From Felis catus (taxonomy: Eukaryota), in NCBI RefSeq assembly GCF_018350175.1, contig NC_058372.1, positions 120,590,001 through 120,654,000 on the forward strand: DNA of 64,000 nucleotides. Reading direction: 5' to 3'. Below the pieces are notes generated by a model that worked only from the letters and a program-made list of their open reading frames with translations, did no database searches and was not told where the DNA came from. Positions 33,992-58,549 of this stretch are shown in pieces. Made by a program: the position numbers and the translations under genes. The first letter of the stretch is position 1; each line of letters starts with the position of its first letter.

Positions 33992-34090
33992 GTAGGTCTT
34001 TGAAGAATCAGGACAACTTACCAAATTTGTAATTGTTTGTCAGCCTATAAATATTTATATTAATTGTGGTTTTTTTTTTTTTTTGTACAG

Positions 34091-34185
34091 TTATGAACCT
34101 GAACTTCATCCTGCTGTGTGCTATCGGATAAAATCTCTAAGAGCTACGTTACAGATTTTTTCAACGGGAAGTATCACAGTAACAG
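34091..34185 (+). CDS. TBPL1: TBPL1 exon 6
   Basis: tacag|(S)YEPELHPAVCYRIKSLRATLQIFSTGSITVT(G)|gtatt; 95 nt. Confidence 0.97.
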
Positions 34186-34451
34186 GTATTTTATGATACT
34201 GAAAGCAGGCGTATGGCCAATTATGGTTTGAATGAAGTGCTTATATCCAAATATAAATATTGTCTCATTGTCCCCCTTCAGTCACTTCTGCCCTACAAAG
34301 GGAACCAGTCTCCTGACTTTTAAAACTGTAGTTTCGTTTTGCCTGCTTTTTCTACTAGTTTTAAGTCTTATACATACTGTTTTGGGTCAGTGTTCTTTCA
34401 TTCATTATTATCTAGTGAGATTCATTCGTATTATTCCACGTAGCTGTAGAT

Positions 34452-34512
34452 CCATGACCTAAGCCAAAATCAAGAGTCAGACGCTTAACCCACTGAGCCA
34501 CACAGGCACCCT
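34452..34512 (-). mobile_element. Can-SINE 5' fragment
   Basis: catgacctaagccaaaatcaagagtcagacgcttaacccactgagccacacaggcaccc. Confidence 0.75.
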
Positions 34513-35546
34513 AAGAGAAATCCACTTCATAAACTTCATAGAGGTTTTACCTAAGCAAAATACTCCTGTATCACTGGTGCCTATTTATCACGTCTTATGT
34601 GTATTTTGTTATGTATCTTCTGAGTCCTAAGTATTTGAAAGGGGTGGTTTCAAAGACAAGGCATAGATGTCAAAGGATCACATTAGCACACAGGATGGTT
34701 TTTAAAAGTACTGTGTGTATAAATTGTACGGAGACATCACTTGAGAGTTAGGCCCAACCTTTGACTAAATTGGATTCAGGAAAATTTCTTTGGTGTCCTT
34801 GAATTTTTCTTTTTATTCCTTTAGTCCTTAAGAGAAAATACACGTTACCAACACCTTTAGACTCTGAACAAGTAAGTTTTAGTTTTGACTGATTCTATGG
34901 GTTTTCACATCTTCCTTGGAGACTTTTAAAACCTACTGCCAGAGTCATGCCGAAATCTTAAAATGGAGTGTGGGGGAACAAATCCATGTTCTTTCTTGTC
35001 TTCTTTCAACTGCCTCTTCCTACATTTTGGAGCCTAGGCCTCTGGCAGAGCCCCAAAATCTGTTGAGAAGTCCCCATTAAGTGTAGAGTTTATGATGCAT
35101 AGGTAAAATCTACATTTGAGTTAATAGGTAACTAAACAACATCACAAACTGAAGACAGTTAGGTTGATTAGTATGCGTTATATATTTACATCTGGAACAT
35201 CCTATGAAATGTTAACAATTCAGTGAACAGATACTGAGTGGTTCCCATAGGCAAAGCACTATCCTATGTGGGGGAAGGGAGAGGAATCAGGAAAGAGCAG
35301 ACCCTGATGATAGCATGTGGTCAGTACCTTCAGAGAGTTCACAGTGGGTACAATATGTGTGTTTTTAAGATCTTTCAAAAGAGTTAAGCGTACGTTAGTG
35401 AAACCATTTTTATTAAAATGTTTTATGAAAATATTTGGTCTTTTTTTATGTTTCCTTTTATCTATTCAAGTGGAATATTAAATTTTTTAAAAACTAGTTA
35501 TTCCTAGCCTTATATGGATTAATTCATATGTAGCGTTACCTCATTC

Positions 35547-35548
<2 letters not shown>

Positions 35549-35591
<43 letters not shown>

Positions 35592-35602
35592 TGCGCGCGC
35601 GC
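35549..35602. repeat. (GT)n(GC)n alternating purine-pyrimidine tract
   Basis: About 19 GT units followed by gcgcgtgcgcgcgcgc. Confidence 0.95.
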
Positions 35603-36160
35603 CCCTATTTACTGAGTGAACTGTGAGGATGAATGGCCAGGTTAGTAATACACGTGGGGGTGGGTAGTGAGTACTAATCTGCGGGGCGTTTTAGACCAGT
35701 TAGCTAGTCACAGCCCTCTGATTTCCCAGAACTTTGGAAGCAGGCTTGTTGTACTTCACTGGGTTCCTCAGCACTCCTGTGAGCGTCAGAGGCGGCCTAA
35801 CCAAAGCCAGACTACAGCGACCAAAAGGCTAGTGCCCAAAATGTCTACTCCCGTTTATCATTCCTTCCTTTAATCAGTATCTCACATCGCTTCTTATTCT
35901 CCTTCACGGCAGTCTGTGTGTGGTTTTTATGTACACTGTCTTCACCCTGGGGCCCGAAAACAAGACGAATCACGTCATTGGTGTTTCAGATTGCCTCGAA
36001 CTGTTCAGAGAGAATTTTATTCTCTTGGTTTTTGCTGTGACCGTCTGACTATGTAAAGTGTAGATCTTTTTAAAAACAGCCCCATATATTTTCAGTTCTG
36101 GGAAATCCGCGTTCCTGGCGCTCTTCTCACCCCTTCCTCTCTCTGTTGTGTTTGGTACAG

Positions 36161-36240
36161 GGCCCAACGTAAAGGCTGTTGCTACTGCTGTGGAACAGAT
36201 TTACCCGTTTGTGTTTGAAAGCAGGAAAGAAATTTTATAA
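36161..36240 (+). CDS. TBPL1: TBPL1 exon 7 coding part (stop TAA 36238-36240)
   Basis: tacag|(G)PNVKAVATAVEQIYPFVFESRKEIL*; total CDS 561 nt (186 aa) if exon 3 is 83 nt. Confidence 0.97.
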
Positions 36241-36771
36241 TTCATCGCTTAATTGGTTAGAATCCCTAACTGAGCACCTTTTAAAACCTGCTGCACATTG
36301 GACTCAAAACAAAAGGAAAACTGGACCAACAGTAATTGAGGAAATAGACTCTTTTATTCATTCACGGCTACAGTGTAAGCTCCAGGCCCTTTGGATTTTA
36401 TTTCAGACCTTGCTGTAATATAAAAAGGAAGTTTACAAGACATGACATTGCTGCTTTTACAAAAGGACATTCTATTTATTTTCGCAGTAATTCTCATGTC
36501 CCCGAAAGCAGAGCTGTCACAGTGTGCACTACCTTAAATTGTTCTGTTGTTGTCATTAGTTNNNNNNNNNNNNNNNNNNNNNNNNNNNNNNNNNNNNNNN
36601 NNNNNNNNNNNNNNNNNNNNNNNNNNNNNNNNNNNNNNNNNNNNNNNNNNNNNNNNNNNNNNNNNNNNNNNNNNNNNNNNNNNNNNNNNNNNNNNNNNNN
36701 NNNNNNNNNNNNNNNNNNNNNNNNNNNNNNNNNNNNNNNNNNNNNNNNNNNNNNNNNNNNNNNNNNNNNNN
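36241..36771 (+). other. TBPL1: TBPL1 3' UTR (end probably inside N run 36562-36771)
   Basis: Follows the stop codon. No AATAAA in the readable part, so the proximal poly(A) signal is probably masked. Confidence 0.6.
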
Positions 36772-36945
36772 CTTTTTGATCTATGCAAGCTTANNNNNNN
36801 NNNNNNNNNNNNNNNNNNNNNNNNNNNNNNNNNNNNNNNNNNNNNNNNNNNNNNNNNNNNNNNNNNNNNNNNNNNNNNNNNNNNNNNNNNNNNNNNNNNN
36901 NNNNNNNNNNNNNNNNNNNNNNNNNNNNNNNNNNNNNNNNNNNNN

Positions 36946-37917
36946 TTCTAGGGAATGAACCGGAGTAGAACTTTATAGATTAAGCATAATGTTTTATGTT
37001 GCTAATTTAATATGATAGAAAATGTTAAATATCTTTTAAAAGTTACAGAATTGTAGTTTTAAAAAGCAAAACCTCTTACCTATGAGATGGATGTGAGAAA
37101 GAAGCTGTGATGGGTTGCACCTCGTATGTACTTCTGTGATTCTGGTAAGACTCAACTCTAGTTGTAGGAAAGTAGTAATCCGGGGTTGGTGTTCGAGGCT
37201 ATACCAAGAGTCTTGTCAGAAGTTGATACGTTGTGCTGTTTTAACAAGAAGTGCCCACAAGCTGCCTCTGTGCCACAGTATAATTATAATATAGTTCAAC
37301 TTGAACTTGAAAGCCATTTTGCAAGACATGTCTTTCCCCTTGCTGTGTCTTATTTAATGGAGCTGAAGAGTGACTGCCTATCCAGGATCTGGGATTGCTC
37401 CTCTTAAAATGACAATAAATGTGCATGTGTGAAACACTGGCTCTCTGGCTCACCCGCGTGAGCCCTGGGATGGTGGCGTGCGGATCAGGCTGCAGTTGTG
37501 CTCCACCCCTGGGGTGAGGAATTCGGTAGAACCAACAGTAATTTCAACGCGAAGTGAAGTTGAGTGGAGAGTGCAATTGGCTTCTCAGTAGAAACCTACT
37601 AGAGACAGTATTCCAACACAATCCGCCACTAAAACCTGAATTTCCAAAACGTTTTGAAAGCTTCATGAGAAATGGCCGCGTCCTAACCTCCATATTCGAG
37701 TCCATTTTCCTCACCATCTCATAAAGTCTCCCAAACCTCACTTACGTCCTGCACTGAACAACACACGTTATTTTAGATTTATTTTTATCTTCTTTCCTCT
37801 CGATGCCTTTCCCTACTGTGCCTCTCTTAATGGCGGTGGGGGGGGGGGGGGGACAAAGGCTAACTTCTATATTTTCTTTCTTGTGAAAGACTTCTGATTT
37901 TCAAACTTCCGTGTGCC

Positions 37918-37965
<48 letters not shown>

Positions 37966-40559
37966 TTTACATCGTGTTTATTTGCTTCACGTTAAGAGCC
38001 AATAGGATAGGTAGACCTCATAAAATACAGAGGATACCATTCCGTGAAGAAGTTACAGGTTCCGGGCAGACTATTTTAAAAATCGAGATTTTCCACTTAG
38101 CTTTAATTAACAGTAACAAGTGACCTGTTTTGTAACGTTCCCCCCAAAAAGAAATGTAGGAAAGGGGGGGGGGGACATGATTATATGGCCAATGTGCGGA
38201 TCCAGGTGTTGTAATATTTTCAGCATTCGAGTGACTTGAAAAGTGGGTAGATCAGTAGCGCATCAAAACGCTTTCTCAGAAAAGAGGAAGAAAGACAATC
38301 TAACCAGTTTAGGTTTCAGGGCTGCTGTGTGAGCGTCACCTGGCAAAATGTCCTGGCTGACCCACTAAACTTAACAAAGCTGGGAAGAATGAGCGTGTCT
38401 GAGGTCTTCTGCTGGCTCTTCACAAGTGCTGTAAATTTTTTGATAAATAAAAACTGTGAATATATACATACACATTGTAAGTATTCCCCCTTTTTTATTT
38501 TTGAAAACCAAAAAAAGCTCTGATTGGGGACATGTTGGGTAAAAGTTGGTTCGAAGACAGAATTATTTAGTCACGGACTCAGGGTAATAAAAGAAACGTG
38601 TAAGAGTGTTTAAGATACCGAAGTTGAAATCACCAGTGATAAACCACCTAAGTTTATGAACAATTTCCTACCCATTTATGATGAGTGGCTAAAACAAATT
38701 GCTAATGTATACATAGTGCTCAGACTTTGAAGGGAACATGTAACAGTTTTGTTAAATATCTCACAATCTGGGACGCTTGGCAAAGAAAACAAATTTGTAT
38801 CAATTCCCTGTCTTGATTAAAAAAAAATCTCAGCATCTAATTCCACTGAAGATTCATAATAAATTTCTTAAATTGATCCTCTAGAACACACTTCCTTTTT
38901 CCAAAAAAAAAAAAAAAACACAACCACCCAACACATGCTCTAACTTGCATAGGAAATATGCTGTGGTAGAAGGAAGGTCTCAAGTCTCCCTTCCTCATAA
39001 CTTTCCCTGCCAATTTTCATTATGTAATTCGTTTCAGAATCAGGACTTTTAGTCATTCTCCTGAGTCTCTGCTAGGACAGTTTCCCTATTATACAGATTT
39101 GTAGTCTTTCCATTTTGTTGTAGGGAAATGACTAGGTCATATACCCTTCTGTCAAACTGGGACAGTTTGTTTGGGCCCAGTAGGAAAATCCCAACCTAAA
39201 TAACGAAGGGTTTTGGCTCTTAGGATTCTCTTTTCTTCAGGTCAAACGTAATTGGTTACTCTTTTTCAAGTTAGGTTATTCGTGCCTTAAGTCTTTGTGT
39301 GCCTCCCATAGCTTATAATAGTCACTTAATGGGTTACTCCTGAAGTGGGTCAAGATTCTTTATTGTAGGTTCTCTGTCGTCATATCCAAATTGGTAAAAT
39401 GCCCCACCAAGTCCTAATATTCAACTGGAGAAATGCAGAGGAAAGCAATTCATTGTTGTGGTAAAAACTCAAGCTTCTGGTATAGCTGGTGACCTCTGTT
39501 TCATCATAGAGAAGAACATAGGGAAGGAGTTGTCCTGATGTCCTATGTCTGCAGTCATCTGAAAGTCAGCATCAATTCTAGCCAGTATGCCATGACCCGA
39601 GGTAGTGATATTCCTGAGGAGTGCAAAGAATTGCGGGAAACTATGGATCGCTATTAAGTCATGAAAGCCTTACAAGGAGAGAGTTTTATAAGCTTGACTG
39701 CGTAACTCAAACCTAATTGATTATAGAGATTTGGATAAATAACCTAATGGCCTGACTCCTTTTCTGATGTTTTACTAACAGCTACTACTAAGTATATATG
39801 GTCCCAGGATTTGGAAATTGCCTTTTCTATTCATATATATTTTTTTAAATGGATGGAAAAGTGTCTGTTTTTCTTAACTATGGCAGAATTGTTTCTTTTA
39901 ATATGTGATAATACATAAAATTTATAAAGGGGTATTTTGCATTACACTGTTGTTCATAATTCATAGAATGAGCTGCATAATCTTTGTACTTGTTGAAATA
40001 TAATTAGGAATTATCACTGAAATCCTAGCCAGGATCCTATCCTAATCTAAAACATAGGTGCAATTGTCCACGTTGTGTCCTGTTCTTTTTTACAGAAGAC
40101 CCAGTGTAAGTACTGTCATAGTGGGCAAAAAAAAAACCCTGTAAGCTCGTGTCCCGGCCACTTATGTGTCCGGATAATAAAGCTGCGACTGGCCTCCGTA
40201 CGTACATACCTTAAGGCAGAAGTTGATCGCATTACTAGTTCATAGTTTTTCAAAGGCTGCTATGTGAAAAGGGTGGGAAGTATTGAACCAGCCAGTATTT
40301 TTCACCTAGTATCCTACTCAGAGTAAGAGATCACTTGGGATCTTGCACCCCATTTACGCTTTGACAGGTGGACATGAAAGGTTGTCCTTATCATTTCAGG
40401 GGGTCCCTCTAAAACTAGCTCCGTGACCCTAAGAAAACATGGGGGTGGCCAATAGGTGTTGGTACAAAGACACCCTTCTAATTTGTCAACACTTGGAAGG
40501 TCTGAGGCCATTAGGTCTCCGGAGAAAGCCACCTTGCTCGTCCCCTACCACACCGCTTT
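36946..40559 (-). other. SLC2A12: SLC2A12 long 3' UTR (distal end uncertain, probably near the N runs)
   Basis: About 3.6 kb free of SINEs, downstream of the terminal coding exon on the - strand; consistent with the long GLUT12 mRNA. Confidence 0.55.
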
Positions 40560-40665
40560 TTACACTCCAAGAGCTGCTCTTGGGGGTTTTCTTTTTTGAA
40601 GCTGTTTTGGCACTAATTCCTCTTGATGATGACTCATAAAACAAATGTTGTTTTTCACAAAGTTC
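40560..40665 (-). CDS. SLC2A12: GLUT12 terminal exon, literal reading frame (the ancestral frame would end at 40511)
   Basis: ctttcag|G AAC TTT GTG AAA... = (G)[27 protein letters not shown], then PRAALGV* (TAA 40562-40560). One base over, the frame reads [23 protein letters not shown] to 40511. Confidence 0.9.
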
Positions 40666-41161
40666 CTGAAAGAGAAAGAGGCACGAATGAAAATGTCGTT
40701 CTTAATTTATAGTACCGGGGTAGGGGGGGAAGGGTGCAGGCTTTTTTTTTTTTTTTAAACCACCCCGGGCCTCTCATGTGTTAGCTAAGCAAAAAAGACA
40801 TTTTCATTGTAAAGCCCTGACGTATCCTGACATTCAGTACCCCACAGAACTTGGGTCGATTTCATGCAAAGGGTAAAATGGGGGGGGTGACTTCTCCGAA
40901 CACAATCAAGGCATTCCTACCAGCAGAGTCCAAGGACAGTATTACACAGAACTAATGGCGATAACGTCCCAGATCCTATTTTGTCTCCACTTCTCGAACC
41001 CAATTAACATGCCTGTTTGTATATCTACGTTGTCTGCCTTCTGCATTATCCCCTTGCTCCGGCATTAATAATTTCTTTTCCTACAGGATTATTCCCATGA
41101 TGGGATTATTTCCCATAAAAATATGCCCTAGTATTTTACGTTCATTTAAAAGTGAAACAAA

Positions 41162-52652: not shown

Positions 52653-52785
52653 CCTTTGGCCAGCTCCGCTGATATCTGTTCCAAAGAGCATCCCTTCGTC
52701 TCAGGTATAAACACAACAACAAAAACCAGGGATGCGAGGCTCATGATCGTGTATATAAAGCACACCCATGGCAAGCCAATGAGAT
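52653..52785 (-). CDS. SLC2A12: GLUT12 penultimate exon (last TM helix and PETKG motif)
   Basis: tgtag|(D)[43 protein letters not shown](G)|gtaagt; 133 nt; contains the sugar-porter PETKG signature. Confidence 0.97.
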
Positions 52786-56706: not shown

Positions 56707-57544
56707 AAAATAACGGATCTGGGTGATGATCCTCGAAGGGGCCTGAATGACAAAGTGGGACACAGACAGACAAGCAGACACACAGGGTGTGCCTTTGTGG
56801 CAGGACACCCGCCATCATCTGTGAAGGAATTCATAGACAAACAAATGAGAAAATCTAAATCTGCTCTCAAGCCTCGAGATCTAAAGAGCAGTTCTCAGGA
56901 AACCCAAAAGACAGAAGGCCACGTGACATGACTGTAATCAGCAAAACCCAGCGTGGGGAAAACTCTTTGAAACAAATGACCCAGTTTCTTCATTACAAAT
57001 CCAAAGATGGGCAGGAAAGGGAGGAAATGGAGATGAAACCTACAAATTAGGAGCCATGTCAATCAACGGCAGATTGTGTTATTTGGATCGTGATTCAAAC
57101 AAAGTATAAGAAAACATAAAAAGTGTATAAAAGACATAAAAATAACAGAAAATATAAAAAATAACTATAAGACATGGAAGAATGTGGATACAGACTCGAT
57201 ATTTGATACTAAGGGATTACTGTGAATATTTTTATTTCTGATAATGACCTTGCAGGTATAGGTTTTAAACGCCTGATCTTTTAGAGGTCCACGTGGAAAT
57301 TTTATAGACAAAATGACGTCCTGTCTGGGATATGACCCAAAACAATTCGGGGAGAGAGAAGCTGGGGTTATAAACGAATTCAGAATGATAACTTTAAATT
57401 GGGTGGTCGGTACATCAGATACATCCTCTTTATGTTTGAATGTTTTAAAAAGGTCCACAGTGAAATGTCTTTTAGGTGAGTGTGCTTCCCCAACATTTGT
57501 CCTATGAGCACAAAAGGTGTTAGAGGCAAACAGCAGGTCCTTAC

Positions 57545-57667
57545 CGGTCACAGTCAAAAATGTCAGAGAGATGATGAGATTGATGCCCCAGTTCATGCTA
57601 GAAGTTAAAGCCATGGCTCGTCCTCTAATTCCAGCAGGAAAAATCTCGCTCAGTAGTAGCCAGGGCA
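57545..57667 (-). CDS. SLC2A12: GLUT12 exon (third from last)
   Basis: ttctag|(x)[42 protein letters not shown](D)|gtaagg; 123 nt; sugar-porter SEIFP..RG motif. Upstream exons lie beyond the window. Confidence 0.97.
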
Positions 57668-58549
57668 CTAGAAGAAAGGGAAGAGAGGGTGGGGAGCAGC
57701 GAAATTATCAAACACCCATTGAAACGGAGGGCCAGCCCCCTGACCTCCGACCTCGGCTCTGGCCCTGAGTGGTCTATGGTTGGAGAGCAGGGCTGGGTCC
57801 TTCCTTGGCAGGAGGGAAGAGGACAGGCTTCCTGCTCCTCTCCAGCCAAGTGAGAAAGGATTCGGGAGAAACACCAACAGAGCCTGACAATCCTGGAGGA
57901 GGGGTGGGGCAGGGGTGGGGGGCGGGAGGACAGAAAGCGCTGGTATGTGACACAGGACTGAGAAATGCAAATGGGAGGGGCAGTGGCTGGGGCCACCTGC
58001 CAGGGAGCAACCAGAGAGGCAGCTTGGGACCTCTGCCAAGCACGGAGTCTCAGGGCCAGACCAGCGCTCTACCTGCTCCATGTCTGGGCCCTTCCCTATA
58101 ATTTCCTTTGCCCCTGACCTTGGAGAAATCCAACATCATAGCCAATGAGTGGGTAGGAAATGGAGCCACGAAGGCAGGAGGAAGGAGGCCGTCTTATTCC
58201 CCCTTCTCCCACTTGGTCTTCCTGACCTGGGCAAGCTGAGCAGACAGAAGGTCTGAATTCAACAGAGCTCCGAAATTTGATTATTATACTTGACTTAATG
58301 TTTGAGTGTCTGAAAGGAGACTCTGGTCGGCACAAAAACTGACCAGAGCACTTTTGATTCTCTGGGAGTGACGGGGAGCATTATAGGACCCTCCTGATGG
58401 GATCAGGAGGGGCGGCCGAGGGGCAAACGCACTTGTCTTCTGCTTACAGCCTTTCAAGTCCCATCTGCCCTCATAAAGGCGCTACGAGTTCGTACAACGG
58501 ACGGAGCGCGTCCCGAAACTTACTTCAAACGAGTCTCCTCAAATCTCAC

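What the first reader, a model, noticed from the sequence alone, without database searches (positions are those of the whole stretch)
40511..40665. +1 frameshift in the last GLUT12 exon swaps the C-terminal tail (loses the dileucine, ends in -ALGV)
Seen: the + strand has a run of five G at 40582-40586 (CCCCC on the coding strand). Read in frame from the splice acceptor, the exon gives ...[15 protein letters not shown] (TAA 40562-40560). One base over, the frame is still open and reads [23 protein letters not shown] (stop 40513-40511), which aligns with the human tail as I recall it (QEQLLECNKLCGRGQSRQLSPET). Acceptor to ancestral stop is 155 nt; frame arithmetic requires 154. Established: GLUT12 was described with dileucine motifs in both termini, and cytosolic tails steer GLUT trafficking; a stop in the last exon escapes NMD. 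Inference: if real, this animal makes a GLUT12 16 residues shorter, without the C-terminal LL and ending in L-G-V, which fits a class II PDZ-ligand pattern. That would be notable in an obligate carnivore with unusual glucose handling. The abandoned frame differs from human at about 5 of 23 residues versus about 3 of 44 in the preceding exon, which is compatible with relaxed constraint but not proof. A homopolymer sequencing or assembly error is an equally serious explanation.
Basis: partly seen in the sequence, partly recalled or inferred. Interest (0 to 1): 0.7.

Follow-up and report, generated by a model that had tools for sequence, protein, structure and literature searches.

The report
Cats and hyenas share GLUT12 frameshift
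One extra base in the last exon of the glucose transporter gene GLUT12 gives this cat a protein 16 residues shorter with a different tip, the same tip that public gene models show in other cats and in hyenas; it is likely a tolerated change rather than a carnivore adaptation, because rabbits, manatees, elephants and bats appear to have lost the same tail separately.

Summary
The frameshift is real. Five C (coding strand, 40582-40586) shift SLC2A12 exon 5, giving a 602-aa protein ending [11 protein letters not shown] instead of the 618-aa caniform form. Of 14 fetched feliform models that read exon 5, 12 end in [R/G]AALGV (Lynx, Leopardus, Herpailurus, Panthera, Neofelis, Hyaena, Crocuta). The other 2 are RefSeq 'LOW QUALITY' models. 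The abandoned frame differs from those two at 3/23 and 4/23 residues, against 3/595 and 2/595 in the core, as expected of 3' UTR. The functional story is weak. The C-terminal LL is present in only 41 of 73 genera with an intact tail (absent in mouse, pig, whales, orangutan) and is not a [DE]xxxL[LI] motif; the N-terminal motif is kept. Tail-changing lesions recur in about six other lineages, herbivores included. The '-GV' end is pre-encoded in the shifted frame of the ancestral codons. Against pure neutrality: where intact, the tail is about as conserved as the core. No read-level count over the run was obtained; mongooses, civets and fossa are untested. No paper on it was found, and no earlier scan finding.

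The parts
40582..40586 (-). C5 run in SLC2A12 exon 5; one C more than the ancestral frame allows (the +1 insertion)
   Evidence: frame arithmetic; caniform and other mammal proteins read KRKPQEQ here
40560..40665 (-). coding part of exon 5 as read now, ending [11 protein letters not shown] and stop TAA
   Evidence: same ending in Leopardus P0133 (1 difference in 602 aa) and Panthera P0126 (4 differences)
40563..40583 (-). new 7-residue tail PRAALGV (PGAALGV in hyenas)
40511..40582 (-). abandoned ancestral frame [23 protein letters not shown] and old stop; beyond 40560 it is now likely 3' UTR
   Evidence: 3/23 and 4/23 differences from two felid models against 3/595 and 2/595 in the core
40666..40687 (-). 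splice acceptor of exon 5 (AG at 40667-40666, 17 of 19 pyrimidines)
40601..40623 (-). only AG in the scanned stretch whose use would restore the old tail (first exonic base 40601); weak, 5 of 19 pyrimidines
   Evidence: 1 of 12 AG sites in 40560-40720 gives the old frame
40659..40661 (-). Phe codon replacing a Tyr that is invariant in 73 of 73 genera with an intact tail; shared by cats and hyenas
52653..52785 (-). SLC2A12 exon 4 (133 nt; last TM helix and PETKG...SLEQI), intact
57545..57667 (-). SLC2A12 exon 3 (123 nt), intact; exons 1 and 2 lie beyond the window (L005, L003)

Best explanation
A one-base C insertion in the last exon of SLC2A12 replaces the final 23 residues of GLUT12 by 7 new ones (602 aa instead of 618), the same ending is found in gene models of five felid and two hyaenid genera, and it is likely a single old, tolerated change that leaves a working transporter. 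Shown: the insertion, the intact rest of the gene, the shared tail, and the fast drift of the abandoned frame. Inferred: replication slippage in the C run as the cause; origin before the split of Felidae from other feliform families (36.5 Mya, CI 28.9-46.5, PMC3065456); escape from nonsense-mediated decay because the stop lies in the last exon; sorting still directed by the retained N-terminal EGPALL motif; at most a modest effect on trafficking or turnover.
For: 12 of 14 feliform exon-5 models end in [R/G]AALGV; the other 2 carry RefSeq's LOW QUALITY label, and for Lynx canadensis a second model (P0002) ends in ALGV. All fetched caniform and pangolin models that read exon 5 keep the long tail. 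The core is almost unchanged (1-4 differences from Leopardus and Panthera), so the gene is not decaying. Tail-to-core divergence ratio is 26 and 52 for window against the two corrected felid models (Fisher p 8e-4, 2e-5), against 0-4.1 in 16 control pairs with intact tails. The Cys/Tyr difference between window and Lynx in the old frame falls on the last codon of the new frame, which is Val in both (P0001 against P0002). LL is present in 41 of 73 genera; goat, cow and chicken are reported to lack it (passages of PMC3665807 and PMC4592010). Mouse lacks it too, and mouse Glut12 cloned in pEGFP-N1 reached the apical membrane and served in transport assays (passages of PMC8786643; that this vector tags the C-terminus is my knowledge). 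Tail lesions recur in sirenians and elephant, leporids, Myotis, phyllostomid bats, lorisiforms and camels.
Against: Where intact the tail is not junk: 0 of 23 differences for pig-hippo, chimp-Aotus, Moschus-Odocoileus and Microcebus-Prolemur, and column conservation of 0.63-0.97. So its loss may have an effect. Feliforms also changed an otherwise invariant Tyr, and sirenians and elephant an invariant Cys, in the proximal tail, which could mean rewiring rather than indifference. Two papers suggest, without a test, that lack of the LL relates to low insulin sensitivity in ruminants. A single origin is untested: no Herpestidae, Viverridae, Eupleridae or Nandiniidae exon-5 model was among the listed proteins. 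The other lineages' lesions are read from protein models only. No protein-level or read-level evidence over the site.
Confidence: 0.68

Rival explanations
1. The tail swap changed regulation: losing the LL, two cysteines and the terminal RQLSPET, and gaining a free L-G-V end that binds a class II PDZ protein, keeps more GLUT12 at the cell surface in feliforms.
For: Intact tails are conserved. AALGV is unchanged in all 12 feliform models. Three lineages end at the same GV (feliforms ALGV, leporids LLGV, sirenians ADGV). Reviews state that N- and C-terminal dileucines retain GLUT12 inside the cell (passage of PMC12279597).
Against: GV-stop is what the ancestral codons give in that frame: a camel splice model in the same frame ends VLGV (P0029). 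Sirenians have D at -2 and elephant stops earlier. Invariance of AALGV has P about 0.14-0.37 under neutrality (assumed tree lengths). Hyenas differ at residue 2 of the new tail. The LL is not in a [DE]xxxL[LI] context and is missing in 32 of 73 genera. None of the 15 listed of 18 papers holding GLUT12 and PDZ announces such a link in title or abstract start (listing only).
Confidence: 0.14
2. The same C insertion arose twice, once in the felid stem and once in the hyaenid stem, because the C run is a slippage hot spot.
For: It is a homopolymer site. The same region was hit in other mammals. Hyenas read PG where cats read PR. A precedent exists: an identical UGT1A6 stop in felids and brown hyena was judged independent (passages of PMC3065456).
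Against: Same base and same position (KRKPP) in both families, whereas the other lineages' lesions differ in place and kind; both hyaenid genera sampled carry it.
Confidence: 0.15
3. The old tail is still made in part, through the cryptic acceptor at 40601 or a +1 ribosomal slip on the CCC-C codons.
For: The old frame is still open to the old stop in the window and in two other felid models; one AG would restore it.
Against: That AG has 5 of 19 pyrimidines against 17 of 19 for the real acceptor. Staying open is expected by chance with P about 0.4-0.75 (assumed divergences). The old frame drifts far faster than the core.
Confidence: 0.04
4. Homopolymer error in this assembly.
For: The site is a 5-base run; RefSeq treated it as an error in two felid models (LOW QUALITY label); no read-level count was obtained.
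Against: Same tail in models of seven genera from separate assemblies; 14 runs hold all 44 sampled words; UTR-like drift of the old frame.
Confidence: 0.01

Closest known systems
Mammalian GLUT12 (SLC2A12), class III facilitative glucose transporter
   Same: Five exons, intact core, N-terminal [DE]xxxL[LI] motif EGPALL, PETKG...SLEQI helix and proximal tail; 92% identical to caniform orthologues over 595 residues.
   Different: Last 23 residues replaced by 7; no C-terminal LL; Tyr to Phe in NYVKNN.
Other mammalian GLUT12 tail lesions seen here (leporids LLGV, sirenians AADGV, elephant, Myotis, phyllostomids, lorisiforms, camels; in-frame LL deletions in orangutans and Echinops)
   Same: Last-exon change of the distal tail with an intact core; leporids and sirenians end at the same GV.
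   Different: Different positions and lesions; separate origins inferred from their scatter over the mammal tree; DNA not examined.
Ruminant and chicken GLUT12 lacking the C-terminal dileucine (PMC3665807, PMC4592010; passages seen)
   Same: Natural loss of the C-terminal LL in a working GLUT12.
   Different: There by substitution within an intact tail; here by frameshift, with loss of the whole distal tail.
Felid diet-linked gene losses Tas1r2 and UGT1A6 (PMC3065456; passages seen)
   Same: A fixed frame-changing mutation shared by cats, with a match in hyenas.
   Different: Those inactivate the gene; here 595 residues are intact and conserved, and herbivores show parallel lesions.

Membership tests
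GLUT12 / SLC2A12 orthologue | Highest similarity to named SLC2A12 proteins, five-exon open frame, single locus | tested here: met
   top hits are SLC2A12; 1 difference in 602 aa from Leopardus P0133
GLUT12 / SLC2A12 orthologue | N-terminal [DE]xxxL[LI] sorting motif | tested here: met
   EGPALL in the window's gene; motif in 7 of 7 feliform genera and 74 of 92 genera, most misses being N-truncated models
GLUT12 / SLC2A12 orthologue | Sugar transport by the 602-aa form | not testable with these tools
   needs an uptake assay
[DE]xxxL[LI] dileucine sorting signal (for the lost C-terminal LL) | Acidic residue four places before the first Leu | tested here: not met
   context is P-Q-E-Q-L-L; Pro at -4 in 68 of 73 genera; motif definition as in the abstract start of PMC2730553
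[DE]xxxL[LI] dileucine sorting signal (for the lost C-terminal LL) | Conservation of the LL across orthologues | tested here: not met
   41 of 73 genera
Class II PDZ ligand | Hydrophobic-x-hydrophobic at a free C-terminus (pattern recalled, not from a call) | tested here: met
   L-G-V-stop
Class II PDZ ligand | Conservation beyond chance | tested here: inconclusive
   AALGV invariant in 12 of 12 feliform models, but P 0.14-0.37 under assumed neutral tree lengths
Class II PDZ ligand | Binding to a PDZ domain | not tested
   no candidate partner known; needs a binding screen
Diet-linked felid pseudogene (Tas1r2, UGT1A6 type) | Inactivating lesions with a decaying frame | tested here: not met
   core intact and conserved
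Diet-linked felid pseudogene (Tas1r2, UGT1A6 type) | Restriction to hypercarnivores | tested here: not met
   parallel lesions in rabbit, hare, manatee, dugong, elephant, camel; long tail kept in sea lion, seal and mustelids
Programmed ribosomal frameshift or alternative acceptor keeping both tails | Second frame under purifying selection | tested here: not met
   tail-to-core ratio 26-52 against 0-4.1 in controls

The most novel reading that the evidence does not exclude
The GLUT12 tail is a conserved regulatory module that mammals have switched off repeatedly by frameshift into a pre-existing short frame ending in GV. In cats and hyenas the switch, together with the Tyr-to-Phe change, removed a retention or phosphorylation element and created a PDZ-binding end, so that feliform GLUT12 sits at the surface independently of insulin. 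At least seven natural tail variants would then form a ready-made series for mapping what the GLUT12 tail does.
Probability: 0.12. Interest if true: 0.6.

Novelty: new member of a known kind. Interest (0 to 1): 0.3.

Why it matters
It is a clade marker for feliforms and a clean natural truncation of a transporter tail whose role is asserted in reviews but was not shown in any passage I could read. It also has practical uses. Two felid RefSeq models appear to have 'corrected' a real mutation. Reagents aimed at the extreme C-terminus of human or dog GLUT12 would be expected to miss the cat protein (inference; that such antibodies exist is recalled, and searches found no source). It does not, on present evidence, explain feline glucose handling.

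Tried and rejected
Read-level test: no G4/G5 count over the run was obtained. The lay on 40450-40575 gave 1 RNA read (99+% alike) in about 2% of one run and no contigs in the other 3 of 4 runs, which is too little to use. RNA and small-share rows were not used as evidence. Structure prediction of the Leopardus 602-aa form on a 40-sequence alignment failed (mean pLDDT 34.5), so it is no evidence on the tail; no GLUT12 structure was among the 20 PDB matches. A search of shorter proteins found no feliform tail fragment among 9 hits. Meerkat models were found only as isoforms without exon 5 (P0012, P0014, P0155), and only 15 of the 81 members of the main carnivore cluster are listed, so meerkat, domestic-cat, cheetah and puma full-length models may exist unseen. 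The two primary papers on GLUT12 dileucine sorting (Flessner and Moley 2009; Aerni-Flessner 2011) are not held; only their titles were seen in reference lists. Searches for a general precedent and for the antibody epitope gave nothing usable. Earlier-findings look-ups gave no match by sequence and only unrelated microbial notes by words. Rejected: assembly error, pseudogenisation, carnivory link, restoring acceptor, ribosomal frameshift (reasons above).

Full report
Observation. The minus strand carries SLC2A12 exons 3, 4 and 5 at 57667-57545, 52785-52653 and from 40665. Exons 1 and 2 lie in the neighbouring genome stretches L005 and L003. All four introns have GT-AG ends. Exon lengths 115, 1332, 123 and 133 put exon 5 in phase 2, and the spliced frame gives 602 residues ending [15 protein letters not shown] at the TAA 40562-40560. 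The run of five G at 40582-40586 is present. One base over, [23 protein letters not shown] runs to the stop at 40513-40511. The locus is single-copy.

Is it real? Yes. Among 304 fetched proteins, 211 read exon 5 in frame and 14 of these carry the feliform NFVKN signature. Twelve of the 14 end in RAALGV (Lynx, Leopardus, Herpailurus, Panthera, Neofelis) or GAALGV (Hyaena, Crocuta). Full-length models are 602 aa (P0126, P0130, P0133) against 618 in sea lion, bear and mustelids. The other two (P0001, a Lynx; P0132, name cut off, N-terminus Lynx-like) are 618 aa and labelled LOW QUALITY PROTEIN. To my knowledge RefSeq uses that label when it alters a model against the genome, and a second Lynx canadensis model (P0002) ends in ALGV. 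Fourteen of 24 listed sequencing runs, from 6 studies, hold all 44 sampled 31-mers of 40300-40800; 8 of the 14 are flagged as possible sources, and runs are ranked by share, so this shows presence and not fixation. With random sampling the chance that no word spans the G5 is 0.065. A direct read count over the run was not obtained. The lay on 40450-40575 returned one RNA read and no contigs.

Is the old frame abandoned? The window's old frame differs from P0001 at 3 of 23 and from P0132 at 4 of 23 residues, while the 595-residue core differs at 3 and 2 (ratios 26 and 52; Fisher p 8e-4 and 2e-5). In 16 control pairs of mammals with intact tails the ratio is 0 to 4.1. The controls are more distant pairs, and the two felid comparisons are not independent of each other. 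That the old frame is still open is unremarkable: P about 0.38-0.75 for assumed neutral divergences of 0.10-0.03. Of 12 AG sites in 40560-40720 only one (exon start 40601) would restore the old tail, and it has 5 of 19 pyrimidines against 17 of 19 for the real acceptor.

Age. All caniform and pangolin models that read exon 5 keep the long tail. If the insertion arose once, it predates the split of Felidae from other feliform families, given as 36.5 Mya (CI 28.9-46.5) in PMC3065456 (passages). Four of the six feliform families have no exon-5 model among the listed proteins. The same paper judges an identical UGT1A6 stop in felids and brown hyena to be independent, so two origins in a homopolymer remain possible.

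Does the tail matter? One model per genus was taken for 92 genera; 19 with an altered tail were set aside by eye (7 feliform, 12 others) and 73 aligned. The LL is present in 41 of 73. It is FL in pig, hippo, whales and ruminants, LP in mouse, rat and hamster, LS in rhinoceros and colugos, and deleted in Pongo (both species) and Echinops. Its context has Pro at -4 in 68 of 73, so it is not a [DE]xxxL[LI] signal. The N-terminal motif is kept in 7 of 7 feliform genera. Papers on goat and chicken report the same absence of the C-terminal LL and only suggest a link to insulin resistance (passages of PMC3665807 and PMC4592010). Reviews state that dileucines retain GLUT12 inside cells (passages of PMC12279597, PMC7462842 and PMC6929180). 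The primary papers they cite name the N-terminal motif or the [DE]XXXL[LI] motif in their titles and could not be read. Altered tails also occur in manatee and dugong (KRVPRAADGV), elephant (KRAPR), rabbit and hare (QEQLLGV), Myotis, Phyllostomus, Otolemur and camels. For Desmodus and Nycticebus the evidence is partly a LOW QUALITY label, and Sciurus has only a short extension. These are protein models; their DNA was not examined. Several are herbivores, and carnivorous seals and mustelids keep the long tail, so diet does not explain the pattern.

Against simple neutrality. Where it is kept, the distal tail is about as conserved as the core (0 of 23 differences in 4 of 16 control pairs), with column conservation 0.63-0.97 against mostly 0.9-1.0 for the proximal [13 protein letters not shown]. 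Feliforms changed the invariant Tyr of that stretch to Phe, and sirenians and elephant changed its invariant Cys to Arg. The tail is therefore best called constrained but repeatedly dispensable.

The PDZ idea. L-G-V fits the class II pattern (recalled). But GV-stop is what the conserved L-E-C-K codons give one base over, so any shift of this phase upstream ends there; a camel splice model does too (P0029). Sirenians have D-G-V and elephant stops earlier. AALGV is unchanged in feliforms, which has P 0.14-0.37 under assumed neutral tree lengths of 0.20-0.10. No binding test was made.

Mechanism. Likely a slippage insertion in a C run, giving a last-exon stop that would escape nonsense-mediated decay (general knowledge) and a transporter with all membrane helices, the PETKG...SLEQI helix and the N-terminal sorting motif intact. 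The sequence facts are shown; cause, date, expression and function are inferred.

Novelty. No paper was found for SLC2A12 with Felidae or with carnivor and frameshift; the 7 papers each for SLC2A12, frameshift and cat and GLUT12 and feline do not concern it by their listings, and passages of PMC11123172 and PMC8786643 confirmed that for two. The library lacks most subscription journals, and supplements of large comparative-genomics papers were not searched and may list it. The short form already stands in public gene models. Verdict: a real, apparently undescribed feliform tail swap, one of about seven in mammals, of modest interest unless a trafficking effect is shown.

Noticed in passing
window 40659-40661 (-): Cats and hyenas have Phe where 73 of 73 other genera have Tyr (NYVKNN); felids also have Gly for Ala at the exon 4/5 junction.
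   Followed up: partly
proteins P0101, P0103, P0185-P0188: Elephant, manatee and dugong combine a tail lesion with Arg at the otherwise invariant Cys of NNICF.
   Followed up: partly
proteins P0001, P0132, P0190, P0192, P0172, P0183: RefSeq LOW QUALITY models of Lynx, rabbit, Otolemur and Phyllostomus read through tail lesions that other models of the same genera show as altered ends; these look like corrections of real mutations.
   Followed up: partly
proteins P0060, P0239: Both orangutan species have an in-frame 4-residue deletion that removes the C-terminal LL.
   Followed up: no
window 57165-57704 (-): Exon 3 reads on in frame into intron 3; this read-through end appears as an isoform in Felis catus UniRef (P0008), Panthera (P0135), Suricata (P0014) and a Logan protein (P0136).
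   Followed up: no
window 57545-57667 (-): An isoform skipping the 123-nt exon 3 in frame (561 aa in feliforms, 577 or 573 in caniforms) is annotated in many carnivores; it would lack membrane-embedded sequence.
   Followed up: no
window 39902 and 39364 (-): First polyadenylation-like hexamers downstream of the new stop (ATTAAA, AATAAA); 15 such hexamers lie in 34000-40560, use unknown.
   Followed up: no
protein P0201: An unnamed Logan protein in the Myotis cluster reads the shifted frame (TSRAALGV) and then returns to the old frame, suggesting two compensating indels or an assembly fault.
   Followed up: no
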